DNA of 62,922 nucleotides, filler included, from Sanchytrium tribonematis (Eukaryota): the NCBI GenBank assembly GCA_018985235.1. It is 17 parts of 17 records of this genome, joined end to end, with 100 filler letters (N's around TTAATTAATTAA, not from the genome) between each part and the next. Parts side by side here need not be neighbours in the genome. Positions count along the whole stretch, not along the records: positions 13,664 to 33,614 come from JADGIG010000100.1; 16 more parts are not named here. One strand, 5' to 3'. A model generated the notes under the pieces. It saw nothing but the letters and a program-made list of their open reading frames with translations. It was not told the DNA's origin and did not search any database. This document shows, piece by piece, positions 13,564 through 60,912 of the stretch. Position 1 is the stretch's first letter, and each line of letters opens with the position of its first letter. The position numbers and the translations under genes are program-made.

Positions 13564-13755
13564 NNNNNNNNNNNNNNNNNNNNNNNNNNNNNNNNNNNNN
13601 NNNNNNNTTAATTAATTAANNNNNNNNNNNNNNNNNNNNNNNNNNNNNNNNNNNNNNNNNNNNTTTTTAAATTAATAATATACGAAAACCTTGCACCAAT
13701 CAGAAAAAAAATTGGCAAAACCACAATGTAATTCTATTGAGGCTACTAACATTTA

Positions 13756-14166
13756 TTATCTATAAACATCTTCAAATTTTACGACAGCTGTAGGAAGGGA
13801 CTTGACCATTTCTTTGGCAGTGACCTTGTCTTTTAGAAACACGTGAAAATGTCCATTATGGCCCGAAAGGCATCCGTCACATGGTCGTTTTACATAATAT
13901 CCGATAACGTTCCCACAGATCATACAAAATACATCAAAAAGCGAACACCCACATGTCGCCCTCTTGAAATTTTGATCTTCAAGCTTAGAAGCATTAATGA
14001 CTATGTCTGCGCTATAGAGAGATTTGGTGGGGTCGCTTAGAAGAGCAGATTGTGTAGATCTTGTAGTTAAAAGAGTATCACAGTATATGCATGACAATTT
14101 GAATATCTTTTTATGCCTTGACGTATGATTAGAATCATAAAGCACTCTTCTTCTTGGTGAGATCAT
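13756..14166 (-). CDS. FAM72-family zinc-binding protein
   Basis: CIYCDTLLTTR...ALLSD...LYSAD...CGC...CMICGNVIGYYVKRPCDGCL..HNGHFHVF; start position uncertain. Confidence 0.8.
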   Translation of the reverse strand: MISPRRRVLYDSNHTSRHKKIFKLSCIYCDTLLTTRSTQSALLSDPTKSLYSADIVINASKLEDQNFKRATCGCSLFDVFCMICGNVIGYYVKRPCDGCLSGHNGHFHVFLKDKVTAKEMVKSLPTAVVKFEDVYR

Positions 14167-14297
14167 AAAAATGATCCCTTTGTTCCTTTTTATACTTGCC
14201 AAATTAATTAAAGCTATCACGCTGCTTCAAAAAACCAATCAAGTAATCTTTTGTAACCTGCGAAAAGAATAACTGGTTCACAAATTACAATTATTTA

Positions 14298-17200
14298 TTA
14301 TCTGTCATGAGATCTAGATCTGCGATGTTGATGAACTCTGATAGGGCGTACTACGCTGATTGTGTGTCGTCTGTCCAATTTTCTTTTCTCCGGAGATTTT
14401 ATTATGGACTCTGCCCTTCCCACGCCATCTTCTTTCGAAAAAGCAAAGCCGTGATGTTGCTGATCTCCATTCAATATGATTACGCTGGATTGATTTGATA
14501 AAATGCTGTTTCTATGGTTTAAGTTGGTATTGATAGGATCTGGTATAAGCGGCTGTAGCCCAAATTTGCTTGAATTTCGCTCCAAAACACTAGATGGTAA
14601 TGGAGATGCTATTATTTGTGGCAAAGGAGACCTCAATTCTAAAGAGGAGTATCTAGGCAATTGCTGTGGTTCAGTAACGATGGTCAGTCCCCCTGTCTTG
14701 TAAATCTCTTGAAATATATCAATATCAGTGCTAAAATAAGTTCTTCTCATAAATTCGTATAACAACCAAGGTAGTTGACATAGACTGGTGGTCATTATTA
14801 GCGTGAACCAAAATATAATTGAACCAAGTGTAGTATTCACAACACCATATAGAGGACTTTGTACCGCGAAACTGGCACCTATAACATATATTAAGATAGT
14901 CAAAGTGCTTCCCCAAACAAATGCCAAATGTATAATTGTCCAATATTTTGAGCATAATAAACAGTACAAATTCGCATTTAGAACTGCAGCTATAGCCATA
15001 GTTGTCCCAACCGTAATTTTGTCTACTGTACGACCGCCGTCCAATATAATATTATAATATGCCAAAAACGGTACATAGAAGCAAATAACTGACTGATATA
15101 ATCCCACGAACATGACAAGTAGAAAATTTTGATACGTGTATATACTGTTAGATTGGCTACATTTGTAAAGAGACGGAACGCCTAAAAGTACACTCCTTTC
15201 AACTGTTTTATCAAATCCTCCGATAGCTGCGACTGGCAAGGCTGTAAATAAAACATTAAACATCATCATATAAGAAAAATCCCAAACATACTCATAGCTG
15301 AAAAATGAATGGAATTGAAACCAAAACAACACACCTACCCAAATTACATTCTTTTGAAAAAATGTTAAAATCATCCACGAGATTCTGTGGTAATTCCAAT
15401 GCCCATGAACTAATACAAGGGAAACAAGAAAGCGAAACTTATCAATCGCATAGTCTGCATTCATAGCCGCTTGCATTCCTTCCACACCTCGTATTCCAAC
15501 GCCGATGTGTGCAGTTTGAATCATATTGACATCGTTCGCGCCATCTCCAATTGCCAAGGTAATGACGTCTTGCTTCAGCCGAACCATTTTAACAACTTCA
15601 GCTTTTTGCAAAGGACTAACACGGCAACAAATGACTGACGAACATCTAGCACAAAATCTCAAGAATAGATCCACATGGATCGGAGATAAGGCTTGTTCAA
15701 GGGCTTCTCCATCAATAACAAGCGCATTATTGTTAATATTCACTTGTAGTTGCTTTGCAAAAAGCTCCAGTTCGGTGGAGATATCAGCTTGCTTGCCGCG
15801 AATAACGAAGAGTTTTTGTTCTGGCTTTAGTAAATGTGTACTAAACCCAATGGACATTGCAGTTTCTACTTTGTCGCCTGTCAAAATCCAAACCAAAATA
15901 CCAGCCTCTTGGAATAATTTAATTGCTTGTGGAACATATTCTTGAAGTTTGTCTTCGATTCCTGTAGCTCCCACAATTGTCCAATCTTGTTCAATCTCGT
16001 CGTAAAGTCGAGCAATTTGGTCTTTAGAAGCTTCGCTTTGCAGTACATCTTTATATCGTTTCTGCCAAGATTGGTAATAATCTGGTTTTATCTCTTTGTA
16101 CGAAAAACACAATGTCCTTAATCCAGATTGGGCAAAACTCTGCAGATGAGAATCTATGCTGATTTGAACAGAGGGATTGGGTATGCAACGTTTGAACATT
16201 AAATCATCTGCCCCTTTAGTGAATAGAATGATCTTTCCATCAAAACTTTGAACAATCACACTCATTCTTTTTCGAGAGCTTGTAAATTCGATTACATGAA
16301 GAATTGTATAATGATAAGATTTTTCTCTGATTTTTAAAGTAATCATGTTTCCATCACGATGATCAAATACGAACCCACAATCTTTGGCTTTGGTCAGCAA
16401 TGCTATTTCGTCTGGACTTTCACTAACGTATATTTTATTTTGATCCTTATGTTCAATGACAACCGTGTGACAGCACAGTAAGATTGTAAAAAACACATCT
16501 ATGTCTCCGTCAATAGGGAGTGGATTGTCCATTGTATATCGATTATGCATTATTCCACACGCTATAAAATTCATTTTGTTTTCTGTTAAGGTCCCAGTTT
16601 TATCACTAAATATGATATCAACCAAACCTAATTCATCGGCCAAAGTCCATGTACGAGCCAGGGCAGGTTGTTTCCCTCGCATTTCTTTATCACAGTATAT
16701 CCAATAGGATTGCAATCCTTTAATAATTTCTACTGTTATAAACAGCGAAAGTGGAACTATATTTTGGAAAGCCAATAAACCGTCAAAAATATGGAGAAAA
16801 GCTAAAAAATACTTATTTTCTGACGCACTAAACCAAGGATCAAGACTAGCATCGACGACGAAACCAACAGAACTGATGAACACAAACAAGAGCAATAAGA
16901 GGAGATTACCAATAACAAATGGGTTTGTTTTTCGATCGACGCTGCTAAGTTTTTGGCCTTTTGTTCCGGTGTTCATTTGTATCCTAGTTTCTTGACCCGT
17001 ATAGATCACTACACCGACTATAAAATCAGTGTGCTTTAAAGTGCACCCTCTCCATATGGTATTATCAAGAGACAATGATTTACCGTCGTAGTTCCCAGAA
17101 AAAGAATAAATTTGATTAATTGGTTCTTCAACTTGAATTGGTAATTTAGGCACATCAAGCCTTTTCAAGACATCCGCTTTTAAAGGCAAAGTAGAGATAC

Positions 17201-17675
17201 TGGATCTCAATTTCATGTTAGTCTCCCCATCAAGATTTTTCGTTTCAATATAGCAGTAACCATTGTTTTCACTTGAATGCAAAAGAACAATGTCAGCAGG
17301 AATTTGCTGATCTTCATAAATTACAACTATATGGCCTAATTTGATATCTCGGCTAGCTAGATGGCCGATTCCGAAAATTTCAAATGTCAAATTGTTTTGA
17401 ATTAAATCGCTCTTATACCGTTGATAATCTTCTAAAGCATCCTTAAGCATACTTACAGCTACGACTGCGATCAATGGTACAGCCGCAAAAACAGGACTTG
17501 TTATTGCAAATAAAGGACATAATTGTAATATCAGTAGAAACAGGAAGTAAAAATTTGCCCATTTTGAAAATTGAAATACGATGTTTTTGGGTATGAAGTT
17601 TGCAATAGTATAATGCGTTGTTTTAATTAAATTAGAGCTCAAGATTATTGGTTCATTGATGGTCAAAGACCTCAT
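14298..17675 (-). CDS. P4-type phospholipid flippase ATPase
   Basis: ETKNLDGETN, SDKTGTLT, LTGDK, AIGDGANDV and TM segments. Confidence 0.95.
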   Translation of the reverse strand: MRSLTINEPIILSSNLIKTTHYTIANFIPKNIVFQFSKWANFYFLFLLILQLCPLFAITSPVFAAVPLIAVVAVSMLKDALEDYQRYKSDLIQNNLTFEIFGIGHLASRDIKLGHIVVIYEDQQIPADIVLLHSSENNGYCYIETKNLDGETNMKLRSSISTLPLKADVLKRLDVPKLPIQVEEPINQIYSFSGNYDGKSLSLDNTIWRGCTLKHTDFIVGVVIYTGQETRIQMNTGTKGQKLSSVDRKTNPFVIGNLLLLLLFVFISSVGFVVDASLDPWFSASENKYFLAFLHIFDGLLAFQNIVPLSLFITVEIIKGLQSYWIYCDKEMRGKQPALARTWTLADELGLVDIIFSDKTGTLTENKMNFIACGIMHNRYTMDNPLPIDGDIDVFFTILLCCHTVVIEHKDQNKIYVSESPDEIALLTKAKDCGFVFDHRDGNMITLKIREKSYHYTILHVIEFTSSRKRMSVIVQSFDGKIILFTKGADDLMFKRCIPNPSVQISIDSHLQSFAQSGLRTLCFSYKEIKPDYYQSWQKRYKDVLQSEASKDQIARLYDEIEQDWTIVGATGIEDKLQEYVPQAIKLFQEAGILVWILTGDKVETAMSIGFSTHLLKPEQKLFVIRGKQADISTELELFAKQLQVNINNNALVIDGEALEQALSPIHVDLFLRFCARCSSVICCRVSPLQKAEVVKMVRLKQDVITLAIGDGANDVNMIQTAHIGVGIRGVEGMQAAMNADYAIDKFRFLVSLVLVHGHWNYHRISWMILTFFQKNVIWVGVLFWFQFHSFFSYEYVWDFSYMMMFNVLFTALPVAAIGGFDKTVERSVLLGVPSLYKCSQSNSIYTYQNFLLVMFVGLYQSVICFYVPFLAYYNIILDGGRTVDKITVGTTMAIAAVLNANLYCLLCSKYWTIIHLAFVWGSTLTILIYVIGASFAVQSPLYGVVNTTLGSIIFWFTLIMTTSLCQLPWLLYEFMRRTYFSTDIDIFQEIYKTGGLTIVTEPQQLPRYSSLELRSPLPQIIASPLPSSVLERNSSKFGLQPLIPDPINTNLNHRNSILSNQSSVIILNGDQQHHGFAFSKEDGVGRAESIIKSPEKRKLDRRHTISVVRPIRVHQHRRSRSHDR

Positions 17676-17779
17676 TATTCTCCAAAGTTTCAAAATTATT
17701 ACCTGTAAAAAGTCAAAAGTCTAAAAGCCAATCAAGATGTTTGGTGATCAATTAAAAAGTCCAACCCATTGCCTTTTAA

Positions 17780-18454
17780 ATGCATCGCAATCTTTCAATA
17801 ATCGAGCAATTGCCTGACGACATTCTATTTACTTTGTTTCGATATGTTGATGACGTCGATTTAATTTGCCTAAGCATGGTTTCAACCAAATTGCAACAAG
17901 GACTAAAAAAGTTCGAATCACTTCTACAGCAGTTGAAGAGAAATCATTTGGTGTATTTATTTCAAAGAAAACAGCGACCTACATTGGATCAACTGGTGCC
18001 AAATATTGTTCCCGGAAATTCCAGCTTAATTTTAAGTGGAAATATTTCCACACTTTTATTCATCTCAGTCCGTCAAAAAGATTTGGCCAAAAAATTTATC
18101 AGAGACAGAATGAGTAGGAAATTGTCAAAAAGACCAAGTCCAGATTCTATCAGTCACCAAATTCTGCCAAAAATCTACCGTGGGGCCGATTCTCAGGTGG
18201 CAAAAGCCGTATATCAAATATCCAAAGATTCTAGAAAGAATAATATTAAGGCAATGATAAGCATGCACTTGATGAATAAGAAACCTAGATGGGGAGTATT
18301 ATTTAGTTCTATTGAAAAACTTTTGCGATCCAAATTATCCAATGGTTTCGATGTAGCTCTGCAAAGATTCCAAATAGAAACGCAATTATTGGTCTGCCCT
18401 CCAATTAAATCTAAAAAAGTTTACTTTGAATCGCTATCTCTCATAAAAAAATAA
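17780..18454 (+). CDS. F-box protein with RPEL-like repeats
   Basis: IEQLPDDILFTLFRYV F-box; RPTLDQLV and LSKRPSPDSI. Confidence 0.6.
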   Translation: MHRNLSIIEQLPDDILFTLFRYVDDVDLICLSMVSTKLQQGLKKFESLLQQLKRNHLVYLFQRKQRPTLDQLVPNIVPGNSSLILSGNISTLLFISVRQKDLAKKFIRDRMSRKLSKRPSPDSISHQILPKIYRGADSQVAKAVYQISKDSRKNNIKAMISMHLMNKKPRWGVLFSSIEKLLRSKLSNGFDVALQRFQIETQLLVCPPIKSKKVYFESLSLIKK

Positions 18455-18469
18455 AATTTTATTGGCCAA

Positions 18470-19953
18470 ATGGAAAACGTTTTACAATTAACATCAGAAG
18501 AAAAATTGGAGTATAAATTTCATGATTTATCTACCAAAACAGCTAGCATAAGATCATTGATTATCTCAGAATTTGAAATTTTTGAAAATATCAATTTTGC
18601 TTCCCTCGTTAGAACCGATATTAATGAGATTAATAATCCAATCAAGCGTGAACAAATTTTATATTCAAATCCTCTTATGCCATGTATGTTTAGTACTCTT
18701 CAACGAGTAGTGAATGAAAACACTCTGACTGTGGAAGAAAGAAGACTAGCTCGCAAGAAGCTACGAGGTATAATACCCTTGAGCGCATTCGCAAATTTTC
18801 TAGCCAATCGTAAAATCAAACTTATTTAGACAATTGCTTCAAATATTTCATAAACTGCGTGGTTATGACTGATGTAACAGTATTGGCATTATATGTTCAA
18901 TTGCAAAATTCATCCCACCCATTTTTATATTATCAAGGTGCAATTTCAATTTCGATTTTAATTATTTATGTCTTCGAACTAATAATTAAAGCTTTCGATA
19001 ACAAATCCGCCATGTGGAAAAACAAATGGGAAATTTTTAACCTTACAATTACTTTTTCTACGGCTTTACTTGAACTAATTATCATGTTTGTGTCAGAAAG
19101 AGGAATTGCTAGAAGTAAAAAGTTGGAGAATCTGCGAATTTTGAGGGTCTTTAGAATTTTCAAGCTGGTCGCAAATATTGCGCACTTAAGGATAATTATC
19201 AAAACGATTACAGTAGCATTCAGACCCTTATTATATATTGGCGTCTTAATGCTGATGGCTTTAGGATTATTCTCAATAGTGGGTGTCTCTCTTTTTTCTT
19301 CGGATGCAATAATAGGTATTAAAGGAAGGAGGTTCAACTCATTAGGAACCAGTATAGCCCTTTTATATCAAATTATGACTTTAGACAACTGGACTGATTC
19401 GTACTTTGATCTAATAGAGGTCCTAGATCCTTTAATTGTGTCGGCATATTTTGTCTTATGGATTTGTCTTGGTGCATTCATTTTCAAAAATGTCTTCGTT
19501 GGAGTTCTTGTGAATAATTTTGCGAAAGTAGACGAAATGCTGCGAGAAGAGCGCGAGCGACTCAAAAAATTTTATAAATTAGGTTTAATGAAGAAAAAAT
19601 TTCAAGGTGAATTAAAAAGAGCTGAAGTAAGATTGGAGAAAGCTGGTTCCTATGTGTTCCAGCTATCTAAACAAAGGTTGAAGCAGACAGATGATTATCT
19701 ATCACCTATTGGAGCTCAAGTCAAAAAGAATTATTCATGGGCCAATTTTGCCACAAGACAAGACCTTGTCGATTGGGAAACAATTCTGAGAGAAACCATA
19801 TCAGCCATTACCTTAAATACTAATCAAGTGAAGTGGCCCAGAAAGTTATCATACGAGTATCTACAAATTTTGTCAAGCATGCAGGAAGATATTGAAGAGT
19901 TGACTCAAGTCGATATTTTGGCAAATCAGCTTATTTTAGAAATTCTTCAATAA
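18470..19953 (+). CDS. CATSPER2: CatSper2-like cation channel pore subunit, 2 exons (~487 aa)
   Basis: 6-TM channel; S4 LRILRVFRIFKL; pore MTLDNW; CatSper2-type N-terminal IRSLIISEF and C-terminal DWETIL...WPRKLSYEYLQIL; 20-nt intron joins the two ORFs. Confidence 0.85.
18810..18829 (+). other. 20-nt intron GTAAAATCAAACTTATTTAG
   Basis: Removal gives ...FLANHNCFKYFINCVVMTD, restoring the S1 helix in frame. Confidence 0.88.
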
Positions 19954-22128
19954 AGCAAAAAGTTTACTTTTTCTCTTCTATACCATAGATATAACGCCAC
20001 CAGTAGCAGCAGGAAACTCAAGAATGTCAACGACAAAATCAATACCTCTGTTTCTAACCGCATAGGTGCACCAATTACATTTAATATAAATTCATACTCA
20101 AAAGCGCAAAACGAATTCGAGTCTAACGCTCTGAGTTTAAAAACATAAAATTCATCCTGGGTGGAAGACCAAATGATACTGTTGGAAGAATTACCATCGA
20201 AGATCACATAGGGATCGACATTATTAGGTATTTGACAAGCGGACAGCGGATCCGTGTAGGGATTGTAGGTTGAATTGGGCTTTAAAGAAAAATAGCAGCC
20301 AACATCACTAGCCAAAGTTGACCAAGTGAAAGAGTACCTGCCGTACTTCTCAATCAATACGAAAGACCCAATCTGCGCCGTTTCTCCAGCGGAAGAGTTT
20401 CTTCGCACTTTCAAGTGTGGTAAAAATTCATCATTGTAATTAGTATAGTATACATCAGCACATGAATATAGGACTAATTGGTCGAGACTCCCGGTGCCAT
20501 ATTCTTGACTATTGAAATATTTTTGAGCTTTCAGCTGAATATTGATATCTAGACATTCTAATTTGTCAAGTTCCAGTTCAATGGATAGACTAGGTGGACA
20601 ATCTCGATAAAAATAATCCACATTCGGCCCCGAGCATAGAGAATAAAATGATTCGGTCCACCAAAAAACGGCAGATGACTCTGATATTATTAATTCTGAA
20701 AGAGTAGCAATTACATCAGTGGAAACTTTTTGCACAATTGATAATTGCTCACCAAATATATTTCCATACGGTGAAGAAAATTTTCCGACCAACCTTTCAA
20801 ATTTGTCTAAATAAATATCATTATCATAGTATGGTAAATCAATCAAGCTAACACTAGTACAATCTTCCCCGCTACATAAAAACAAGATACCTACTATTGG
20901 CAATAAATTCAATTAAATCAATTTCAATCCATTTTCCAGATTCAAAAAATTTGCAGTAACCTAAGAGATTGCAAAAGAAAGACCCTGGTACAATATCAAG
21001 CCTTTTCAAATAAAACTTATCAATAAGACCAATATAAAGATTCTGATCAATTGAGTATACCAGTCGTCCTGAAAATCTGATATTATTAGTTACATTTCCC
21101 AAATTATGTTCATTGTATATCAAACCAGATTTAATTATTAATTCGTCAGCAGTAATTTGATTTAAAACCTTTTCCTCTGACTGAGTCAATGAAAAGGTAT
21201 TCAAATCGATAGAAAAATAACCAGTGGAATTTTTAACAGACAATGATCTTGCTCCAATATTCACCAAGGAGTAATTTTGAGAGTTTAATTTGTCTCCATT
21301 AATGAAAAGCTTGTCTCCAAACACTATTGCATAATACGGAATGATTCCGTCAAGAATAAGAAATTCCTCGCAATTATTTGTCCAAGAAGTGTTTTCACCA
21401 AAATATAAGCACTGTTTTTGAAAATTCTGTATTACCAACGAGTCGGAAGTGATTTTCAAGTCAAAAATTGCATCAGGAACAGATAGATAATATTCTTGGT
21501 CGCTTACATATTTAATAAAGTTTAATCCCTTTTTGTAGAAAACGCTTTCGTAAGCAGTTAATGAATTGCTTTGAAAATCCAAATTTGAAGTCGGATTATC
21601 CAGTAAGAAAGAAAAATACGAATTCCAGTGAAATATGCGAAATAATTTGCGCAAGTTCAATTGAATCAACTTATCCCTAATGGGGCAACTTCCATATAAG
21701 ACTCTCCCAGCGCTGAGCAATACGTACTCCCATTTTCCGATTCTTTCTATTAGCTCCAAGCTGTATATCCCTTGGGAGTAGTTCATAATTTTCAAGTCAT
21801 TTCTTCTCTTTGCGGTTATACGAATGCCATGTCGAATAAGCGTTTCTGTCACATCTCCTTCATTGCTAATAAGGGAAACTACTAAATGCGTGGAATTGAA
21901 TGAATGACTATAATCTACGCAGGTCTTATCAACGAGACTGATTGTAGCTCTCAAAGTTCCATTCCTAAAAACTGATGTCCCTAGATTTGCGCAAATTACA
22001 TTTGAGCTTGATATTACCACACAGCCTTGTGGTACTATCCAAAACCGCAAATCAACCCCATATATATTTACATCTTTGTAATACTGAGTCGATTTAAAAA
22101 CCAGGCCAAGGACAGCGAAGAAAAACAT
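19947..22128 (-). CDS. CatSper auxiliary subunit, epsilon/delta-like, 2 exons (~720 aa)
   Basis: Signal peptide, large Cys-containing ectodomain, single C-terminal TM; C-terminal FVLIEKYGR...VGC...PYVIF...SIIW...YVFKLRALD.NSFC...F.L.V.GAP resembles CatSper epsilon/delta. Confidence 0.72.
20872..20890 (-). other. 19-nt intron GTATCTTGTTTTTATGTAG
   Basis: GT-AG ends; removal fuses ORFs 20872-22128 and 19947-20912 in frame (2163 nt); closely resembles intron 908-926. Confidence 0.85.
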
Positions 22129-22163
22129 CTTAAAACAAAGAAATTATCAAAAATAATATTTAT

Positions 22164-22766
22164 TCATAAATTAATAACCTCTTTCTTAATAGAGTGTTCT
22201 TTAAATTCTGATGATCTCACCATCTCACAATATGCTACCAACTTTGCAAAAGATAAATTAAGAGCGTCAGTCCGCGAAGGCTTCAATGATTTTGTAGAAG
22301 ATTCTCTACCTCTAGACCCCTGATTCTTGTGTGAGTACTTGAAATCCGCATATTCTAGTCTCGGGGATAATGATAAATTACTAGCTTGTGACAAATCATC
22401 GCAACTCTTTAAATCTGGACTTGAATCACTCGAACGTGACTTAGATTTAGCTCTTTTGTAATACAATTGAGAAGAACTCATTTCGTGAATTAATTTAACA
22501 TGTTTTCGAGCATCATGACTTCTTTTAAATCGTTTGTCACAATGAGGGCATTTGAAAGGCCTAAAGCTAACGTGGCAAAGTAAATGTGATATAATTCGGT
22601 AACGCTTTGATACACTGACTTGACAGTGCAGCCAATTGCAATTATACTCGCCATTACTAGTTTTTGAGCTATCAATATGTTTTTGAACAAGATGCTCATA
22701 CAGCTGCTCGGAATTTGGAAACGCCATAGTACATTCACCCCATGAACATTGTTGAACTTGACTCAT
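22164..22766 (-). CDS. Three-finger C2H2 transcription factor (PacC/GLI-like)
   Basis: CSWGEC..LYEHL..H, CNWLHC..RIISHL..H, RPFKCPHCDKRFKRSHDARKH. Confidence 0.8.
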   Translation of the reverse strand: MSQVQQCSWGECTMAFPNSEQLYEHLVQKHIDSSKTSNGEYNCNWLHCQVSVSKRYRIISHLLCHVSFRPFKCPHCDKRFKRSHDARKHVKLIHEMSSSQLYYKRAKSKSRSSDSSPDLKSCDDLSQASNLSLSPRLEYADFKYSHKNQGSRGRESSTKSLKPSRTDALNLSFAKLVAYCEMVRSSEFKEHSIKKEVINL

Positions 22767-22976
22767 TGTCGTTTCTAGGGTGACGGGGCTGTCGCTTTTT
22801 AAAATGGACTACGGAGTGAAACATAAACATGATTGGCCAAGTTGCTATCAACATACCAATCATATATTAAACACAAGATAACACGGCTAGTCACAGAATT
22901 GATGTTACTGCGAGGTATTTTATTTCATTTGAAAGATTGCTCCTATCCTTCTTTGTAAAACTTTAGGGGTTGATTT

Positions 22977-23378
22977 ATGATTATACGAGTCAAACGAAAA
23001 GCTGTAGAAAGCGCGTTAGACGAATATAACATGGGAAATAAAAAATTCAAGTATATTGCGAGTCATCCCTCAAGTCAATCTGATCCGAAATTCAGAAATG
23101 CACTTGATATTCAAATGAACTCTACTACTTTGAATCGTAAAGATTCAATCGAATCTTTGGAACTTGAGATATCGAATATAGATCTTGGCGATGAATTTGT
23201 TTATGATTACTACGAACTAGATTATTCTTTCGATTTGGAAGAAAATTCGAGCAATAATATTTCCGAGGTTGATTATCCCGATGAATCTTTAGACTCTGAC
23301 TTACGATCATTCTATACTGATGAATTTTTATCGACCTCAGAGATTGACGATGATGAATGGTATGAAGTCACTGATTGA
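22977..23378 (+). CDS. Iwr1/SLC7A6OS-like RNA Pol II import factor
   Basis: IRVKRKA, FVYDYY and DYPDE motifs; acidic tail. Confidence 0.65.
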   Translation: MIIRVKRKAVESALDEYNMGNKKFKYIASHPSSQSDPKFRNALDIQMNSTTLNRKDSIESLELEISNIDLGDEFVYDYYELDYSFDLEENSSNNISEVDYPDESLDSDLRSFYTDEFLSTSEIDDDEWYEVTD

Positions 23379-23442
23379 CGAAGAAAACTGGTATTAATTC
23401 TCAGAGCTATTGTTTAAAAATTAAATTATGATAAATTTATTA

Positions 23443-24258
23443 CTAATCGATTCCTTGATCTTTCATATTTTGCTTAATTACATCAAACACTTTTAGCATT
23501 TTTCTTCTAGCACCCAATGCAGCGACACCCGCCTTCTCCAATGCATCCTCGTCCATTTCGATCCATTCTTTCCAATTATACGATTCCAAATTATCAGAAT
23601 ATTTATGTAGCCGAAGAGTTTTCAAGAAACTAGGCAAATCCTCGAGCTGTTTAAAATCAATTACATCTGGAATTTTCCCTTTAGAAGAAGAAGTGCTTCG
23701 GCTTACCGATGCAGGATTGACTGGGATAGAGAATTCTTCTACACCAGCTTTTCGGCTAGGAACCGTTTGTGACCTTCTCAAAGGATTTGGAGAAGTGACT
23801 TGAATCATTGGCGGCATTATGTCAAGTAATGGAGAAGTTGACCTAATTTGCGGTGATTTTGGCTGCATGAAAGGCGCCAATCTTGACCCAAGTGGAGAAA
23901 TAGAACTTTGGAATGGATCCTCATTATTAGAATCCATCATTGGAGACAAAACGTTTGTTTTTTGACCAAGATCTTTAAGTACTCCAATCAAGAATTTAAC
24001 TTGCGCTGGATTTATGTGCTGTAGCAAATTGAAAAGCGTAGTTGTTTTCTCTGTCACATTCAAATGTTTAAACCACTGCTCGATTTGACAGAGATCTTTT
24101 GTAAATTGAGGTTCTAAACTTTTTGCCATGTCCTCAATCATTGATTCGTAATGCGTCCAATCAATTGGATGCATCCGCGGACTTAAGGGAGATGCCAATG
24201 GCGTTGGTTGAGCACTCTTACTTAAATATTGTGTACTTGGGATTAACCTGTCGGACAT
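23443..24258 (-). CDS. VTS1: Vts1/Smaug SAM-domain RNA-binding protein
   Basis: IEQWFKHL...LLQH; SAM LRLHKYSDNL...GVAALGARRKML. Confidence 0.9.
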   Translation of the reverse strand: MSDRLIPSTQYLSKSAQPTPLASPLSPRMHPIDWTHYESMIEDMAKSLEPQFTKDLCQIEQWFKHLNVTEKTTTLFNLLQHINPAQVKFLIGVLKDLGQKTNVLSPMMDSNNEDPFQSSISPLGSRLAPFMQPKSPQIRSTSPLLDIMPPMIQVTSPNPLRRSQTVPSRKAGVEEFSIPVNPASVSRSTSSSKGKIPDVIDFKQLEDLPSFLKTLRLHKYSDNLESYNWKEWIEMDEDALEKAGVAALGARRKMLKVFDVIKQNMKDQGID

Positions 24259-24433
24259 AAGAAATCGAGATTTTGGATGTTTTAAACTAAAGTGCCATCA
24301 AATCATTGGCCAGCAATTAATTTTTTTTTCTGATTGGACTACAAATTCATTAGCCAAATGAAAATTAAAGAAAAACTGAATGAATAAAATGTATTCCATT
24401 CCAATTTGGCAGCAATAGATAAGATCAAGGAAT

Positions 24434-24853
24434 TTAAGACAAATAGCCAATTTTATTTGCAATTTCAAGTGCATCAGAGTCTGCTGTCAATCTGACATAT
24501 GCTTTTTTATCTCCAGAAGGTCTAATCAAGGTGTTAACTTTATATACTTCAATACCATACAATTCATGTAAAGATCTTGCGATTGTTTTCTTGCTGGCCT
24601 TCGGATCAACAATGAATACTAATGTATTCTCTTCCTCAAGCTGTTTAGTGGTAGACTCTGTGCTTAAAGGGTACTTGACAACTCTGAAGGCGTCCATTTT
24701 GTTAACGTGGCCAAGTTTTTTTTGAGATTGGCGTTTAAGTCTCAAAGTCTTTGGACGAATAAATTTTGGGGAAGTTCTAATTGATTTTTTTGTACTTGAT
24801 TGATTTCCCTTCTTCACGCTAACTGCTGCTTTTTTTGCTTTGGTAACTGCCAT
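24434..24853 (-). CDS. RPL25: 60S ribosomal protein L25/L23a (uL23)
   Basis: FIRPKTLRL, ENTLVFIV, VNTLIRPSGDKKAYVRL, IANKIG. Confidence 0.97.
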   Translation of the reverse strand: MAVTKAKKAAVSVKKGNQSSTKKSIRTSPKFIRPKTLRLKRQSQKKLGHVNKMDAFRVVKYPLSTESTTKQLEEENTLVFIVDPKASKKTIARSLHELYGIEVYKVNTLIRPSGDKKAYVRLTADSDALEIANKIGYLS

Positions 24854-24880
24854 CTAGATTTTGAGGAAGCAAAAGAGGCA

Positions 24881-25282
24881 ATGGAGCAAACACGTGAATG
24901 TAAATTCTCGGAATTTTGTTTCGGACTTCAGGAGATGCACCCGTTGTCTAGAGTAACTCGTCAAGAAACCAAAAAGTATACACATGAACAAAAAGTAAAA
25001 CGTAGTAGAAAAATGAATGTCTGTAAATACTACCCGGAGCTATATAAACTGAGATATTTTCAGAAGCAAGAAAAAATTCATAGTCTTTCAGAATTGCGTG
25101 AGATCGCCAAGTTGTATATTAATCATGTTAGGTTAGAGAACAAGTTTTTTGCAGACATCGAAGAGAGAGCCTGGAAAGAGCATTGCTTTAAGATTCCGGA
25201 CCTCATTTCAAAAAAAAATTATGAATTACTTGCGAAATGGAACGGGAATAAGAGTCACTCAATAAAATTCTCGATTATTTAA
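24881..25282 (+). CDS. Hypothetical protein
   Basis: Open frame from ATG 24881 ending at a TAA next to AATAAA. Confidence 0.45.
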   Translation: MEQTRECKFSEFCFGLQEMHPLSRVTRQETKKYTHEQKVKRSRKMNVCKYYPELYKLRYFQKQEKIHSLSELREIAKLYINHVRLENKFFADIEERAWKEHCFKIPDLISKKNYELLAKWNGNKSHSIKFSII

Positions 25283-25302
25283 TAAATAAAAAATTGGTTG
25301 GG

Positions 25303-25420
25303 ATTTGTGGCAATTTTCAAGAAAAGGAAAGCCCCCTTCTGAGAATAATTGCCGAGGTATTCTCCAGAACAGCAAGTGCGTTATTAAAATCACAACACGA
25401 CTCTAATGTGTTCTGTGGAG
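25303..25420 (-). ncRNA. Box H/ACA snoRNA, snR11/SNORA3-like
   Basis: Hairpin-H box (AGAATA, 25358-25363)-hairpin-ACA (25306-25308); first pocket ATTAGAGTC complementary to LSU GACUCUAGU; pocket top 14 nt from the H box. Confidence 0.7.
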
Positions 25421-25487
25421 TTTGGCGGGAGGTCAAGAAAAATGCGATTAAAACTCAGAGACACGTGGTCGGACCAATCAAATTTAT

Positions 25488-26039
25488 TTAAGCAACTAGA
25501 GCTGAGGCAGTAGCTGAGCTATATTTCCAAGTTGGAGGCAAATTGCCAACTGACTTATAGTATCGTGCCAGTCGATGAATTCTGCTTTCAATTAAGATGA
25601 GACGATATTTTGCATCTCTATCTTTTCGATTTCGTTCCATATGTTTTCGAACATTTACTGCTTTCTTGATTAAACAATACAAGTCCTCAGGAATTTCTGG
25701 TGCCAGTCCCTTCGTTAGTTAAATTCGCTCAGTATGTTGCATTCATCAGTTGTTCAGAAACACAGACCAATGTATATTGCAAAAACATCCCAGCGGCTCA
25801 CTTACCTTTGACTTAAGCAGTCGAAGAACAGAGTTACCAGTTATGCTTTTGACTTGAGGAACTCCCATGGTGTCTCTTAAAAGTACACCAATTTGGGATG
25901 GAGTCATTCCTTTTCTTGCCAATCTAACAATCTGATCGACAACCTCATCGGGAGAAGATTTGACCCAAGCAGGTGCGCTGCGCACGTAAGGGAGTGCGCT
26001 CGATGATATTCCTTTTCCTTTAGTATGCATTCGTCCCAT
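25488..26039 (-). CDS. RPS13: 40S ribosomal protein S13 (uS15), 2 exons, 151 aa
   Basis: [15 protein letters not shown]...[14 protein letters not shown]; intron 25710-25805 (GTAAGT...ACTAACGAAG). Confidence 0.97.
25726..25795 (-). ncRNA. Intronic box C/D snoRNA, U18/SNORD18-like
   Basis: Terminal stem CGCT/AGCG; D' CTGA preceded by TTGGTCTGTGTTT (pairs with LSU AAACACGGACCAA); C' TGATGA; D CTGA; C box degenerate. Confidence 0.85.
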
Positions 26040-26239
26040 TTTAAGATAATAGTTTGTAAACGAATGGGTGGGAAAAATCACAATAAATTCACGTGTTTTT
26101 GACCAATCAGAATCAAACATTTGAAAGATTGTTGTTTGAACGACCCTCAGTCAAGAAAATGTTTTGATGCAAGCTTTTACAAATATTACATGATTGGATC
26201 AAAATTTATTTTTATTGCTCATTCCCCGATTGCTTTTAA

Positions 26240-26977
26240 ATGGAAGGGAAACTAGTTGAAAAAGTTGTTAAACATGCAAAATCATTCAAACAATTCCAAC
26301 CTGATCCTACACAAGGACTCAGTAGCGAAAATGGCATTCAGAAACTAAATTTAACCTCACCGGAAGATAATGTTCGTAATGAAGCAGAAAAACAGCCTGT
26401 GTCGAGAGATTCACTAGTGACAGATGTTGAAGAACAATACACGAAGCTCGTTGATGAGGAGGTGAACTCGTGTAAAGCCGAGTCAAATTTGGATGAGTCT
26501 GTTAAAGTTCAAATAGAGGCGGAAATCCAAACGATTAAACCTGATCCTGATAGTGATGTGGAACAATCCACTAAGCTTTCACAATTTAAAAAAAAGGATC
26601 AAGATTTCAGACCTGTCGTAGAAGAACTATCAAAAAAGTTAGACATTGTTATGAAGAAGTCATCTTTTAGTCCAGAGTTGTCGAATAAACTCAACAACAT
26701 GAAAGCAGAAAACTCGTCAGTTGTTCGTGAAGATTCCAATTTGGATACAATTTCCGTTGAGAAATCTGAAGAAGCATCTGATACGTCTACAGGAAAATCA
26801 AATTCAGAGAGGAGCGGCAAGCCCGAAGAACGTGAATACTCATCAGGCAACGAGCCAGAAACTGCAAACCTATCACATATTCAAGCTGATGACGATCAAT
26901 TGTCCAAAAAATTGAGTGACTCGAAGAAGAAAGATTCTTTCATGAAAAAATTCAGAAAACTATTTTCATTTTGCTGA
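26240..26977 (+). CDS. Low-complexity Glu/Ser/Lys-rich hypothetical protein
   Basis: 245-aa ORF with no recognisable domain. Confidence 0.6.
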   Translation: MEGKLVEKVVKHAKSFKQFQPDPTQGLSSENGIQKLNLTSPEDNVRNEAEKQPVSRDSLVTDVEEQYTKLVDEEVNSCKAESNLDESVKVQIEAEIQTIKPDPDSDVEQSTKLSQFKKKDQDFRPVVEELSKKLDIVMKKSSFSPELSNKLNNMKAENSSVVREDSNLDTISVEKSEEASDTSTGKSNSERSGKPEEREYSSGNEPETANLSHIQADDDQLSKKLSDSKKKDSFMKKFRKLFSFC

Positions 26978-27024
26978 AAACTGCTGATTGAATAAAAAAT
27001 ATAAATCCTTCTCCGTGTTTAAAA

Positions 27025-28590
27025 ATGAGTAACCCTTTACAATTATTTGAAAATGGAGCACAGGAAGAAAGAGGAGAAGAAGCCAGGCTTTCCATATTTG
27101 TTGCTGCTGCTGCTATAGGTGACTTGATTAAAAGCACTCTAGGGCCTAAAGGAATGGACAAAATTTTACAGAGTGGCAGCAGTATGCAAGTAACAAATGA
27201 TGGTGCAACGATTCTTAAGAGTGTGATGATTGACAATCCTGCTGCTAAACTACTGGTAAACTTGGCGCAAGCACAAGATGATGAAGTAGGAGATGGCACA
27301 ACTAGTGTGACTGTTTTAGCAAGTGAATTATTGCGTCAAGCGGAAAAACTTGTGGATCAACGTATCCACCCACAAATTATAGTTCAAGGGTATAGATTAG
27401 CATCGCAGCATGCGATCAAGGCCCTACAAGCTAAGAAGAAGACATTAGTTGAAGCAGATTTGCGAGAATATCTTATTAAAATCGCAAAAACAACTTTGTC
27501 CTCTAAGGTACTAAACCAAGACAAGGATTACTTTGCTAAAATGGTAGTCGATGCTGTCTTGAGACTTAAAGGAAAAGGCGATCTGAATTTAATCCAAATT
27601 ATTAAAAAAATGGGTGGTAAACTGCAAGACTCATATCTCGATGATGGGTTTATTTTAGACAAAAGTATTAGCGTCAACTCCCCTAAAGAAATGACTGACT
27701 GTAAGATTCTGATTGCAAACACCCCCATGGATACCGATAAAATTAAGGTATTTGGTGCAAGAGTAAAAGCTGACTCCACACAGCAATTAGCTGATTTGGA
27801 AAGGGTAGAAAAAGAAAAAATGAAGACTAAAGTTGAGAAAATCAAAGCTCATGGTGTCAATGTATTCGTGAATCGTCAATTGATATACAATTATCCCGAG
27901 CAGCTGTTGGGCGATGCTGGCGTATTAGTTATCGAACATGCAGACTTTGATGGTGTAGAAAGATTAGCCTTGGTTACAGGGGGGGAAATCGCATCCACCT
28001 TCGATCATCCGGAACTCTGTCAACTAGGAAAATGTGGAAAAATTGAGCAAGTCATGATCGGCGAGGATAAATTGATCAAGTTTACGGGAGTTGTTGGAGA
28101 AGCATGTTCCATTGTTCTTAGAGGTGCTACCAACCAGCTCTTGGATGAGGCGGAGAGGAGTATTCACGATGCTTTATGTGTGTTAACTCAAACTGTAAAA
28201 TATCCAGAAACTGTATATGGGGGAGGGTGCTCGGAAGTTTTAATGGCGGAGGCTGTTGATGAATTGGCTCGATCAACTCCGGGAAAAGTTTCCTTTGCAA
28301 TTACAGCATTTGCTGATGCCTTAAGATCACTACCAAGAACTATCGCCGAGAATGCCGGATTGGATGGCAACGATTTACTCTCTAAATTGCAAACTGCGCA
28401 TGTTAACGGCCAAACAAATTTCGGGATCAATGTTTACAGCAATGAAGTCTCGAGTATGGATGCATTAGGAATTGTCGAGTGCTTTAAGGCTAAAAAGTGT
28501 GTAGTTGTCAATGCCAGTGAAGCTGCAGAGATGCTACTGAGAGTCGACGATGTTGTTAAACGCGCTCCTAGACAAAGAGAGAGACATTAA
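27025..28590 (+). CDS. CCT2: T-complex protein 1 subunit beta
   Basis: [36 protein letters not shown]. Confidence 0.97.
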
Positions 28591-29283
28591 ATGCGAGATA
28601 ATAAATCTTATAACAAGTATCTCCCTTTTATGACAATTCAAAATATTCGCGAAGAGTTACTTAACCTAGACTCACTTCGCCAACAGCTAACGCAAAAGCT
28701 TATTTCATTAACCCAAAGGCTTCAAGAGTCAAGAACCAATTTGACAGATCCACTTGTAATAGATGGGTTTCCTAGGAATGATATTGACCTTTATCAAGTC
28801 CGTACTTTAAGACAAAATTACAGAATTACGCAGAATGACCTATACGAAATAGACAAAAAAATCGAAACTCTGCTGCCTCAAGCACTCTCGGCGACTGTTG
28901 AATCAACTCAAAATTTATCACATCAACAGTCAAATTATGTAGAAAATGCTACTTATGAATTGCCTAAAGAATGGCACATTATTGTGAACGCAGTCGATCC
29001 AGATTCTCCAGCTTATATAGATGGGTTGCGGCGTGGTGATATCATTTTCAAAATCAATGGTCTCGGAATCACAAAGTTGAACTCCGGATGGATTTTTAAT
29101 GGAGAAAACTTTAGGTCTGAGACGGAAATTCTGGAGCGTATTTCTATCTTGATTATTGAGCACAATCCACTTAATTTGAATTTAGTAAGAGGTTTTGATG
29201 AAACTCAAATTGTTTTAATTCCCAGAAAATGGAGCGGTCACGGACTTTTAGGAATCCACATGAAGCTTCAGGAACAGAAATAA
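28591..29283 (+). CDS. NAS2: 26S proteasome assembly chaperone Nas2/PSMD9
   Basis: PLVIDGFPRNDIDLYQVR, PDZ domain, PRKWSGHGLLG; start may be the second ATG. Confidence 0.88.
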   Translation: MRDNKSYNKYLPFMTIQNIREELLNLDSLRQQLTQKLISLTQRLQESRTNLTDPLVIDGFPRNDIDLYQVRTLRQNYRITQNDLYEIDKKIETLLPQALSATVESTQNLSHQQSNYVENATYELPKEWHIIVNAVDPDSPAYIDGLRRGDIIFKINGLGITKLNSGWIFNGENFRSETEILERISILIIEHNPLNLNLVRGFDETQIVLIPRKWSGHGLLGIHMKLQEQK

Positions 29284-30647
29284 AATTTTAAAAGTTTACT
29301 TTTAATACTCGCAATTTGCGCAAATACGGAACTTCTGCTAGTTCCGCCTATGCTATTTCTAGATTCTACGGCTTCAACTTCATTAAAAATTGCAAAAATA
29401 TCGGCGCCGATTCTAGCATCAATGTTTTGAAATTCTTTAAGGGTAAGATCGTCCAAATTTTTGAGTGCAGATTCTGAAAATAATATACATTTGCCTGAAA
29501 TATGATGCGACTCGCGAAAAGGAACGCCTTTTTTAACCAGATAATCCGCCAGTTCAGTTGCGAACATGTCCTTAGTAATAGCCAGCTTCATTTTCTCTGG
29601 AAAAACTTTAAGAGTGTTGATCACGCCGTCGGCAACCTCAAGACACAAGATCATAATATCAAAAGTTTCAAAAAGTGACGCTTTATCATCTTGAAGATCT
29701 TTGTTGTATGTGGATGGAAGACCTTTAATACTGATAAATAAAGATGTTAAAAGCCCAAAAATTTTGCCACTTTTTCCACGTAAAAGCTCCAATGCATCCG
29801 GGTTCTTCTTCTGAGGCATCAATGAGGAGCCACTGGAAAACTTGTCACTGCATTTCACAAATCCAAATTCAGACGAGGAGTATATAATTAAATCTTCGGC
29901 CCATCTGCTAAGGTGATTTGAAAATAAAGAACTTGTCCACAGAAATTCCAAAATAAAATCTCTATCACTGACGGCGAAAAGACTATTTTCCAAATTGCTG
30001 CTAAACCCTAAGGAGGAGCAAAGTTTCTCTCTATCAATTCCGAAAGGATTTCCACTAAGAGCACCGGAGCCCAATGGATTTCGATCAATTCTTCGTAGAA
30101 TTTGAATAAATCTTTCGATATCATCTATTAAATTCCAAGCAAATTGAAGGTTCCAATGTGACCAACGAATTGGCTGGGCTCTTTGCAAATGAGTATAACC
30201 AGGAAATATAATTTCAATATCTCGCTTCGAAATTAACAAAATAGAGTCAACTAGTTTCTTTAGTTTCTCCAAAACAGTTACAACAGCTTTTTTAAGCCAA
30301 AGTCTCATGTCTGTGACAACTTGGTCGTTTCTGGAGCGCCCGGTGTGAAGTTTCTTACCGGTATCGCCAATTAGTTCAATCAGTCGTCTTTCGTTTGCTG
30401 TGTGTACATCTTCATCTTCGGGTTTAATGGAAAATTTTTTAGAAGTCCACTCGTTTTTTATCATTGATAACCCCTCAGTGAGCTGGGTTAGCTCTATTTC
30501 CGAAATCAAATTAGCCTCTTTCAGTGAACTTGCATATGCAATTGAGCCTTCCAGGTCTTCCACCGCCAATCTTCGATCCACTTGAATTGAGTAATTGATT
30601 TCTCTAAAGAGCTTTTCAGAGCCTTCAGCAAATCTACCACCCCACAT
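29268..30647 (-). CDS. ARG4: Argininosuccinate lyase
   Basis: MWGGRF, HTGRSRNDQ, SSGSSLMPQKKNPD. Confidence 0.97.
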   Translation of the reverse strand: MWGGRFAEGSEKLFREINYSIQVDRRLAVEDLEGSIAYASSLKEANLISEIELTQLTEGLSMIKNEWTSKKFSIKPEDEDVHTANERRLIELIGDTGKKLHTGRSRNDQVVTDMRLWLKKAVVTVLEKLKKLVDSILLISKRDIEIIFPGYTHLQRAQPIRWSHWNLQFAWNLIDDIERFIQILRRIDRNPLGSGALSGNPFGIDREKLCSSLGFSSNLENSLFAVSDRDFILEFLWTSSLFSNHLSRWAEDLIIYSSSEFGFVKCSDKFSSGSSLMPQKKNPDALELLRGKSGKIFGLLTSLFISIKGLPSTYNKDLQDDKASLFETFDIMILCLEVADGVINTLKVFPEKMKLAITKDMFATELADYLVKKGVPFRESHHISGKCILFSESALKNLDDLTLKEFQNIDARIGADIFAIFNEVEAVESRNSIGGTSRSSVFAQIASIKSKLLKFYFCS

Positions 30648-30944
30648 GTCCGGAAAAATTCGGCGAATTTATTTACTAGACTGAATTTATCAAACCGTAA
30701 AAGAGTGTGAAAATTATAATCTGGCCCGTTTTAAGTTTATCTCTCTATGCAGTCAATCTAATTAGTTTTTGATTTTAAGGTAAAACAAACACTTAGGAAA
30801 GAAACCGTGGTGTATATATGGATTTGGGGTTAAGAAATAAACTGCATAGACTAGTGTGAACATTGGTGTGCGACACGCAATACCAAAACACCGAAATAAT
30901 GATCAACTTTTTATTGGGGCTGTTACATATACTCCCCTAGAAAT

Positions 30945-32447: not shown

Positions 32448-32495
32448 GGAGACAATTTTGTAAGAAGGAATTTAGGCTATAGGATAAATGTAAAT

Positions 32496-39686: not shown

Positions 39687-39843
39687 ACGTTTTTGCAACG
39701 GAAACTGTTTCCAACAATTGAAGAATAAATATTATCAATGACGCGAATTAGTTATTTATTTTGCTATTACTAATTCCAGATTAGTTCGGAATGACGCGCA
39801 TATTTGAATTCTAAATATTTAAAAGCCACTTTTTGAAACAGAA

Positions 39844-60389: not shown

Positions 60390-60912
60390 TAGGAAATTGG
60401 AGTTTAAAAGGAAAAGAGACCCTAAAGATTTATTCATAGCGTTTCGAAATATCAAGGGCACGCGACTTAAATGGAATAATTTTTACGGAAGTGTTTTTGC
60501 CGTTCAAACTCCAGCTTACCTTGCAATAATTAGTGAGGAGGATGACAACATGTGGCATTTTGAAATGGGTGTAATCAAAAACCAATCCTTAAAGTATGGA
60601 AAATCATTTCCCAACATCGAAATCGCAGTCAAGTATGCGGAAACCATCATTTTCCGAAATTTTAGACATGACAGCATTTTATACGGAAAAAAGTCGCCTT
60701 TTCATTGGTCTTCAAAATCATCTAAAAGATCTGCTCAAGAAAATTTGATTAAAACTATTGACGATCAAAAAGATCCATCAATATCAAAACATTTGGATTT
60801 GTACTCCTCGATGATCAATAACTTCTCTGTGTACGATGTTGCGCTGCTAAAAAATAGGCTGCTTTTTTGGCCACATTACAAATTAAGAGGTTATCCATTT
60901 CAAAAAACCTAA
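60390..60912 (+). CDS. Partial hypothetical protein (weak resemblance to Irc3-type helicase C-terminus)
   Basis: AVKYAETI...W.....S.AQ..LI pattern; weak. Confidence 0.3.

What the first reader, a model, noticed from the sequence alone, without database searches (positions are those of the whole stretch)
18470..22128. CatSper2 pore gene tail-to-tail with a CatSper-epsilon-like subunit gene
Seen: on one contig, a CatSper2-like channel (+) and a signal-peptide/large ectodomain/single-TM protein (-) converge and overlap by 7 nt (19947-19953); each has one tiny intron. Known: in the mouse CatSpermasome cryo-EM structure the pairs are CATSPER1-gamma, 2-epsilon, 3-delta and 4-beta, and CatSper pore genes have been reported in Allomyces. 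Inference: a zoosporic fungus encodes a sperm-type CatSper complex, with the pore subunit linked to what may be its structural partner. This could be an ancestral pore+auxiliary module or a chance result of genome compaction.
Basis: partly seen in the sequence, partly recalled or inferred. Interest (0 to 1): 0.85.

Follow-up and report, generated by a model that had tools for sequence, protein, structure and literature searches.

The report
Sperm calcium channel in crawling fungus
Two neighbouring genes encode relatives of the pore subunit CatSper2 and the helper subunit CatSper-epsilon of the sperm calcium channel, in what is likely a sanchytrid (an algal-parasite fungus whose spores crawl and drag a non-beating tail); their adjacency is likely a chance product of genome compaction, and the channel would serve calcium signalling rather than swimming.

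Summary
Observation confirmed: a 487-aa channel (+, 20-nt intron) and a 720-aa single-TM protein (-, 19-nt intron) converge and overlap by 7 nt. The channel is CatSper2-like (filter TLDNW; its last 80 aa hit only mouse CatSper2). The partner's C-terminal third is CatSper delta/epsilon-type (Pfam above cut-off; best fold hit 7EEB_H); its N-terminal 416 aa are unverified. The closest named relative is the sanchytrid Amoeboradix gromovi, where both genes share one contig, but so do three unrelated neighbours (C2H2, Vts1, RPL23A). In 0 of 5 other fungal accession series are CatSper2 and delta/epsilon adjacent, and an unrelated pair on this contig also overlaps tail-to-tail. An ancestral pore+auxiliary module is therefore not supported. 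Fungal CatSper genes are published. What I did not find in print is their retention in sanchytrids: A. gromovi carries CATSPER1-4, epsilon, EFCAB9 and TMEM249 although its pseudocilium is described as immotile. A strong axonemal-dynein annotation in the same table leaves a hidden swimming stage open. The scan noted CatSper auxiliary genes earlier in other genomes (e.g. Rozella), not this pair.

The parts
18470..18809 (+). CatSper2-like pore gene, exon 1 (cytosolic N-terminus)
   Evidence: 69/112 identical to A. gromovi P0007; no PDB hit on its own
18810..18829 (+). 20-nt GT-AG intron, phase 1 (splicing inferred)
   Evidence: P0007 has 7 extra residues at this place, consistent with a retained 21-nt intron (inference)
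18830..19953 (+). CatSper2-like pore gene, exon 2 (S1-S6 and C-terminal tail)
   Evidence: Ion_trans E 3e-29; 7EEB_B 103.6 bits in one stretch
19135..19164 (+). S4 voltage sensor, four basic residues at every third position
   Evidence: present in 4 of 4 sanchytrid-group sequences
19378..19392 (+). Selectivity-filter segment TLDNW
   Evidence: identical in 4 of 4 sequences
19711..19950 (+). CatSper2-specific C-terminal tail
   Evidence: only PDB hit under E 0.4 is mouse CatSper2 residues 523-582, E 4.7e-4
19947..19953 (.). 7-nt tail-to-tail overlap holding both stop codons
19947..20871 (-). CatSper epsilon-type gene, exon 2 (Ig-like region, stem, TM)
   Evidence: PF22850 31.8 bits against cut-off 27.4; PDB hits only epsilon; fold hits 7EEB_H and G
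19989..20045 (-). Single C-terminal TM helix (residues 689-707)
   Evidence: hydropathy; helix in the model
20872..20890 (-). 19-nt GT-AG intron (splicing inferred)
20891..22128 (-). CatSper epsilon-type gene, exon 1 (hydrophobic N-terminus and divergent ectodomain; fold unverified)
   Evidence: no significant match; weak Trp-Cys-Cys hint at the expected N-terminal place, 11 of 500 shuffles score as high
22164..22766 (-). C2H2 zinc-finger gene (synteny control)
   Evidence: a C2H2 gene is on A. gromovi NODE_302
23443..24258 (-). Vts1 SAM-domain gene (synteny control)
   Evidence: a SAM-domain gene is on NODE_302
24434..24853 (-). RPL23A gene (synteny control)
   Evidence: RPL23A is on NODE_302

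Best explanation
The two genes encode a CatSper2-like pore subunit and a shortened delta/epsilon-type canopy subunit that likely assemble, with subunits likely encoded elsewhere in the genome, into a CatSper calcium channel predicted to act in the zoospore's non-beating pseudocilium, and their adjacency is likely a chance rearrangement kept by ordinary sanchytrid synteny. Shown: gene structures, family matches, intact S4 and filter, and the shared block with C2H2, Vts1 and RPL23A in Amoeboradix. Inferred from the mouse complex: a 1-2-3-4 heterotetramer with an aspartate filter, and the epsilon TM packing on the CatSper2 voltage-sensor while its ectodomain joins the canopy. Inferred and untested: the trigger is a membrane-potential or pH shift downstream of the rhodopsin-guanylyl cyclase and cGMP-gated channel that sanchytrids keep, as in sea-urchin sperm. 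The Ca2+ entry would steer crawling, pseudocilium retraction or encystment instead of beating. Step odds: identities 0.93, chance linkage 0.8, sensory role in the crawling zoospore 0.55.
For: Channel: 7EEB_B 103.6 bits in one stretch against 46 for CatSper3 and 4, and 52 or less per single repeat for the two Cav alignments shown. The tail hits only CatSper2. The A. gromovi orthologue carries K16890, between K16889 CATSPER1 and K16891 CATSPER3, and that genome has separate CATSPER1, 3, 4, EFCAB9 and TMEM249 genes on five other contigs. Partner: PF22850 above cut-off; 33 of 34 HMMER hits have PF22850 as top family; a profile of 17 of them matches mouse epsilon end to end (1e-111) and delta only from position 203 (1e-61). 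All 5 fold hits under E 0.001 are CatSper auxiliary chains, epsilon first. Chance linkage. Convergent genes cannot share a promoter (established knowledge). Immotile pseudocilium and retained BeGC1/BeCNG1: PMC8371127 sections 9 and 10. An unnamed calcium channel is proposed downstream of BeCNG1 (PMC4046227 legend).
Against: The A. gromovi table lists an axonemal dynein heavy chain at 3572 bits (NODE_74.p1), against the paper's statement that axonemal dyneins are lost, so a swimming stage is possible. No beta or gamma subunit was found for a sanchytrid (K16893-5 absent, though the file is cut and eggNOG also missed epsilon). The N-terminal 416 aa of the partner match nothing significantly. Whole-protein scores of four-repeat Cav channels equal or exceed CatSper2, and the Atlas scores CatSper2 and CatSper3 clusters alike at 0.96. 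The other subunits were seen in the relative, not in this genome. A specific neighbour pair is unlikely by chance in one genome, about 0.1-0.2% for any of four matched pairs.
Confidence: 0.5

Rival explanations
1. Same proteins, but the channel serves a rare, unobserved swimming stage (for example gametes), where it controls flagellar beat as in sperm.
For: Axonemal dynein heavy chain annotation in A. gromovi. The related Paraphysoderma has amoeboid vegetative zoospores and flagellated cells thought to be gametes. CatSper auxiliary homologues are expressed in Allomyces sexual stages (bioRxiv 230292 passages).
Against: Sanchytrid zoospores were never seen swimming, and loss of inner-arm dyneins, IFT-A and delta/epsilon tubulin is reported. 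The dynein contig could be a contaminant: its coverage label is 1.17 against 0.09-0.66 for the other contigs listed.
Confidence: 0.25
2. The linkage arose in the sanchytrid stem but is now kept by selection, for shared chromatin timing or 3' coupling of two partner subunits.
For: Both genes lie on one contig in A. gromovi, and probably in a third, unnamed sequence set (same longest-contig length 5390). The pair matches the mouse pairing. The chance rate per genome is low.
Against: Three unrelated neighbours are conserved equally. The other subunits are scattered over separate contigs. A NAS2/ARG4 overlap of 16 nt is on the same contig.
Confidence: 0.12
3. The genes are decaying relics of the lost swimming apparatus.
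For: The epsilon clade sits on a long stem of about 2.5 changes per column. Its N-terminal part is 416 aa against 478-655 in 5 homologues.
Against: The channel keeps 53-55% identity and 141 invariant columns over 4 sequences, with filter and S4 intact in 4 of 4. Both reading frames are open. EFCAB9 (E 1e-39) and TMEM249 are kept in the relative.
Confidence: 0.08
4. The pair is an ancestral pore+auxiliary gene module inherited from early fungi or opisthokonts.
For: The pairing matches the mouse structure.
Against: CATSPER2 and D/E accessions are 1,649-4,676 apart in 5 of 5 series, including those recalled as Allomyces and Paraphysoderma of the sister phylum. No pore-auxiliary pair is closer than 92. 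This rests on 11 of 14 CATSPER2 and 14 of 15 D/E fungal entries, noisy orthogroups, and accession order as a proxy for gene order.
Confidence: 0.04

Closest known systems
Mouse CATSPER2 (PDB 7EEB chain B, 9UBW chain B)
   Same: Single 6-TM unit, basic S4, aspartate filter, and a matching C-terminal tail.
   Different: 487 aa against 588; one 20-nt intron; lineage with an immotile pseudocilium; gating untested.
Mouse CATSPER-epsilon (7EEB chain H) and delta (chain G)
   Same: PF22850 C-terminal domain, Ig-like/stem fold, single TM near the C-terminus.
   Different: 720 aa against 985; N-terminal domains and propeller not detectable; probably a pre-duplication delta/epsilon, since delta is reported to appear later (PMC5362262 passage).
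CatSper sets of zoosporic fungi (Allomyces and others; PMC13358043)
   Same: CATSPER1-4, B, G, D/E, T, EFCAB9 and TMEM249 are tabulated for flagellated fungi.
   Different: Sanchytrids are not named in that paper's main text or its supplement 1; there CATSPER2 and D/E are not adjacent; those fungi swim.
Amoeboradix gromovi NODE_302 p2 and p4 (EukProt)
   Same: 52% (channel) and 45% (epsilon exon 2) identity; one contig, shared with C2H2, SAM-domain and RPL23A genes.
   Different: NODE_302 has an M64 peptidase and no annotated P4-ATPase or F-box row; gene order and orientation there were not seen.

Membership tests
CATSPER2 pore subunit | One 6-TM voltage-gated unit, not a four-repeat Cav/Nav | tested here: met
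   One Ion_trans domain; 5 hydrophobic peaks plus a charged S4
CATSPER2 pore subunit | Aspartate filter [TS]xDxW (consensus recalled) and basic S4 | tested here: met
   TLDNW and four basic residues in 4 of 4 sequences
CATSPER2 pore subunit | Closer to CatSper2 than to CatSper1, 3 or 4 by sequence | tested here: met
   103.6 bits against 46; tail hits only CatSper2; K16890 for the orthologue (its name is recalled). Atlas does not separate 2 from 3
CATSPER2 pore subunit | Groups with CATSPER2 in a phylogeny of CatSper1-4 | not tested
   No reference CatSper1-4 sequences were returned by the searches
CatSper channel complex | All four pore genes and beta, gamma, delta/epsilon in one genome | tested here: inconclusive
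   No whole genome held; none elsewhere among 536 window ORFs. The relative has 1-4, epsilon, EFCAB9 and TMEM249; beta and gamma not seen
CatSper channel complex | Flagellar location and pH/voltage-gated Ca2+ current | not testable with these tools
   Needs imaging and patch clamp
CATSPER delta/epsilon | PF22850 C-terminal domain with one TM | tested here: met
   31.8 bits against cut-off 27.4; TM 689-707. The two sanchytrid homologues fall below the cut-off
CATSPER delta/epsilon | Ig-like and stem fold | tested here: met
   Model pLDDT 82; 7EEB_H 1.6e-11, G 1.1e-9. The model used an alignment of epsilon homologues, so it leans that way
CATSPER epsilon | Signal peptide, N-terminal domains and beta-propeller | tested here: inconclusive
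   Hydrophobic start; HHalign probability 1%; 9-44 of 500 shuffles score as high; single-sequence model pLDDT 34
CATSPER epsilon | TM pairs with the CATSPER2 voltage-sensor | not testable with these tools
   Inferred from mouse
Conserved pore+auxiliary gene cluster | Linkage kept beyond background synteny and across phyla | tested here: not met
   Flanking genes equally kept; adjacent in 0 of 5 other accession series

The most novel reading that the evidence does not exclude
Sanchytrids have kept a slimmed CatSper complex as a purely sensory Ca2+ channel in a cilium that no longer beats, wired behind their rhodopsin-guanylyl cyclase and cGMP-gated channel like the sea-urchin sperm cascade. CatSper would then be the unnamed calcium channel of fungal vision and a reason the pseudocilium persists.
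Probability: 0.3. Interest if true: 0.75.

Novelty: new member of a known kind. Interest (0 to 1): 0.45.

Why it matters
CatSper is known for tuning flagellar beat. Keeping it in a lineage described as unable to swim means either a motility-independent role or an unseen swimming stage, and both bear on the open question of why sanchytrids keep a pseudocilium. A compact, nearly intron-free fungal set with a short canopy subunit is also a candidate for heterologous reconstitution, whose lack is noted in PMC5362262. The gene linkage itself probably carries little meaning. The 19-20-nt introns explain why the public models truncate the channel (362 aa) and split epsilon.

Tried and rejected
Whole genome: none held. 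Metagenome scans with the channel alignment (417 pattern stretches, 0 confirmed) and with chytrid-like epsilon P0014 (144 stretches, 0 confirmed) gave no loci, so synteny outside sanchytrids rests on accession numbers. Homologue searches returned only 4 channel sequences, the window's own included, and nothing but itself for epsilon exon 1. The Atlas gave no usable hit for exon 1; its single-sequence fold was meaningless. Complex prediction of channel residues 6-250 with epsilon residues 95-321 gave no verdict (score 0.00, alignments not used, partner fold uncertain). Sequencing runs: no RNA holder listed. Exon 1 of the channel has no PDB hit alone. Epsilon trees (31 of 33 rows; 27 rows after also dropping 4 divergent ones) give a 100/100 sanchytrid clade, but its grouping with Sorochytrium and Blastocladiella has only 57/23. 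Frameshift errors in place of introns were rejected: canonical ends, breaks at the same places in homologues, a third such intron, and no differences (not independent). A non-CatSper 6-TM channel was rejected on the tail match. Cai et al. 2014 was not held. The second structural aligner was not obtained.

Full report
Observation. The window is a string of contigs between N spacers; the finding lies on a 20-kb piece, 13664-33614. The plus gene has exons 18470-18809 and 18830-19953 around a 20-nt GT-AG intron and gives 487 aa. The minus gene has exons 22128-20891 and 20871-19947 around a 19-nt intron and gives 720 aa. They overlap at 19947-19953. The 20-nt intron is the best of 4 options against the Amoeboradix homologue. 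A near-identical 19-nt intron separates the Peptidase_M1_N and Peptidase_M1 halves of another gene at 908-926. Splicing is inferred, not observed.

The channel. Exon 2 holds one Ion_trans domain. Against the PDB, four-repeat Cav channels lead on summed score, but mouse CatSper2 gives 103.6 bits in one stretch, the two Cav alignments shown reach 44.6 and 52.0 per repeat, and CatSper3 and 4 reach 46. The last 80 aa, outside the pore domain, hit only the CatSper2 tail (E 4.7e-4). The filter reads TLDNW and S4 has four basic residues in 4 of 4 sequences. The Atlas ranks a CatSper2 cluster first but CatSper3 clusters equally, at 0.96. No tree with CatSper1-4 references could be built.

The partner. 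Exon 2 passes Pfam's cut-off for CATSPERD-E_C, and its only PDB sequence hits are CatSper-epsilon. A full HMMER scan gave 34 hits; 33 have this family on top and 1 is an unrelated peptidase. A profile of 17 longer hits matches mouse epsilon along its length (1e-111) and delta from position 203 (1e-61). A model built with 33 sequences (pLDDT 82) finds only CatSper auxiliary chains under E 0.001, epsilon first; the alignment biases it. Exon 1 is not significantly matched by any method. The part before the Ig-like region is 416 aa against 478-655 in 5 homologues. It is best called a shortened, divergent delta/epsilon subunit.

The organism. The closest named proteins are from Amoeboradix gromovi: 52% for the channel and 45% for epsilon exon 2. 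With the shared gene block below and 30-39% GC (about 35% is reported for sanchytrids), the window is likely from a sanchytrid. No marker-gene tree was run.

The linkage. In A. gromovi both proteins come from contig NODE_302. The authors' eggNOG table lists 5 annotated ORFs there: an M64 peptidase, the channel (K16890), a SAM-domain protein, a C2H2 protein and RPL23A. The last three are the window's neighbours to the right of epsilon, so the pair is conserved as part of a wider block. Order and orientation on NODE_302 were not seen. For other fungi I read the accession columns of PMC13358043 supplement 1 by position (11 of 14 fungal CATSPER2 and 14 of 15 D/E entries). CATSPER2 and D/E are 1,649-4,676 accessions apart in 5 of 5 shared series, and no pore-auxiliary pair is closer than 92. 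The organism behind each prefix is recalled, two prefixes pool several genomes, the orthogroups are noisy, and accession order only stands in for gene order. On the contig the median gap is 47.5 nt (14 pairs), and NAS2/ARG4 overlap tail-to-tail by 16 nt. A matched pair is adjacent by chance in about 0.1-0.2% of such genomes, which keeps some room for selection, but a scan over many genomes and complexes will meet such cases.

The rest of the complex. The same table lists CATSPER1 (NODE_864), 3 (NODE_564), 4 (NODE_57), EFCAB9 (NODE_260) and TMEM249 (NODE_427) for A. gromovi. Beta, gamma and delta KEGG ids were absent, but the file was cut when stored and eggNOG also missed epsilon. The table also lists an axonemal dynein heavy chain at 3572 bits, which conflicts with the paper's statement that axonemal dyneins are lost.

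Mechanism. In mouse, epsilon pairs with CATSPER2, each canopy TM contacts S2 of its pore subunit, and the canopy is needed for assembly (PMC12851028 passages). Sanchytrid zoospores glide, drag a retractable immotile pseudocilium, and keep BeGC1 and BeCNG1 (PMC8371127 sections 9 and 10). In Blastocladiella, cGMP opens the K+ channel and an unnamed voltage-activated calcium channel is proposed downstream (PMC4046227 legend). Sea-urchin sperm models couple cGMP and a K+ channel to a CatSper module (PMC7067495 passages). I therefore infer a CatSper channel giving a Ca2+ signal in the zoospore; the main rival is a hidden swimming stage.

What is known. CatSper genes in Allomyces, including expressed B, G and D homologues, are reported (bioRxiv 230292 passages). 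Epsilon is reported as ancient (PMC5362262 passages). A 2026 survey tabulates CATSPER1-4, B, D/E, G, T, EFCAB9 and TMEM249 in flagellated fungi without naming sanchytrids. The sanchytrid genome paper has 0 mentions of CatSper in its main text, though its supplement holds the annotations; one supplement file could not be searched. A search for CatSper with sanchytrid names listed 20 of 22 papers; only 1 of those held CatSper, and it did not link them. Searches (titles and abstract starts seen; 7 of 7, 25 of 115, 25 of 315 listed) showed no report of pore-auxiliary linkage. Subscription papers, including Cai et al. 2014 and the mouse structure paper, were not read. Other papers were seen as passages only.

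Verdict. A real CatSper2 and epsilon-type gene pair, new members of a family already known in zoosporic fungi. The linkage is probably incidental. The interest lies in retention by a lineage described as non-swimming. Interest 0.45.

Noticed in passing
window 908-926 (-), 18810-18829 (+), 20872-20890 (-); weaker candidate 60838-60857 (+): 19-20-nt GT-AG introns, beside a roughly 96-nt intron in RPS13. Introns under 30 nt are described as rare, and sanchytrids are not named in PMC13644364.
   Followed up: partly
window 28591-29283 (+) / 29268-30647 (-): NAS2 and ARG4 overlap tail-to-tail by 16 nt; the CCT2 stop abuts the NAS2 ATG with no gap.
   Followed up: yes
window 17780-18454 (+): An F-box gene ends 15 nt before the CatSper2 ATG, so the channel's promoter must lie inside it or the transcripts overlap.
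   Followed up: no
A. gromovi NODE_74.p1 (PMC8371127 supplement 4): Axonemal dynein heavy chain annotation at 3572 bits, against the reported loss of axonemal dyneins; real or contaminant is unknown.
   Followed up: no
A. gromovi NODE_564.p1 and NODE_864.p2: ORF numbers with no eggNOG row on the CATSPER3 and CATSPER1 contigs; they could be divergent auxiliary subunits, as epsilon p4 also had no row.
   Followed up: no
PMC13358043 supplement 1, sheet 5: CATSPER1 and CATSPER3 entries are consecutive in two series (KAI9140843/4; KAG4092211/2): a linked pore pair or split gene models.
   Followed up: no
window 18865-19953 (P0005): The public model is 362 aa and starts at an internal Met, missing exon 1.
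   Followed up: yes
window 47167-49716 (+): An 850-aa open frame with no Pfam hit at E 0.001.
   Followed up: no
window 39823-40791 (+): DOMON/CDH-cytochrome plus cytochrome b561 protein.
   Followed up: no
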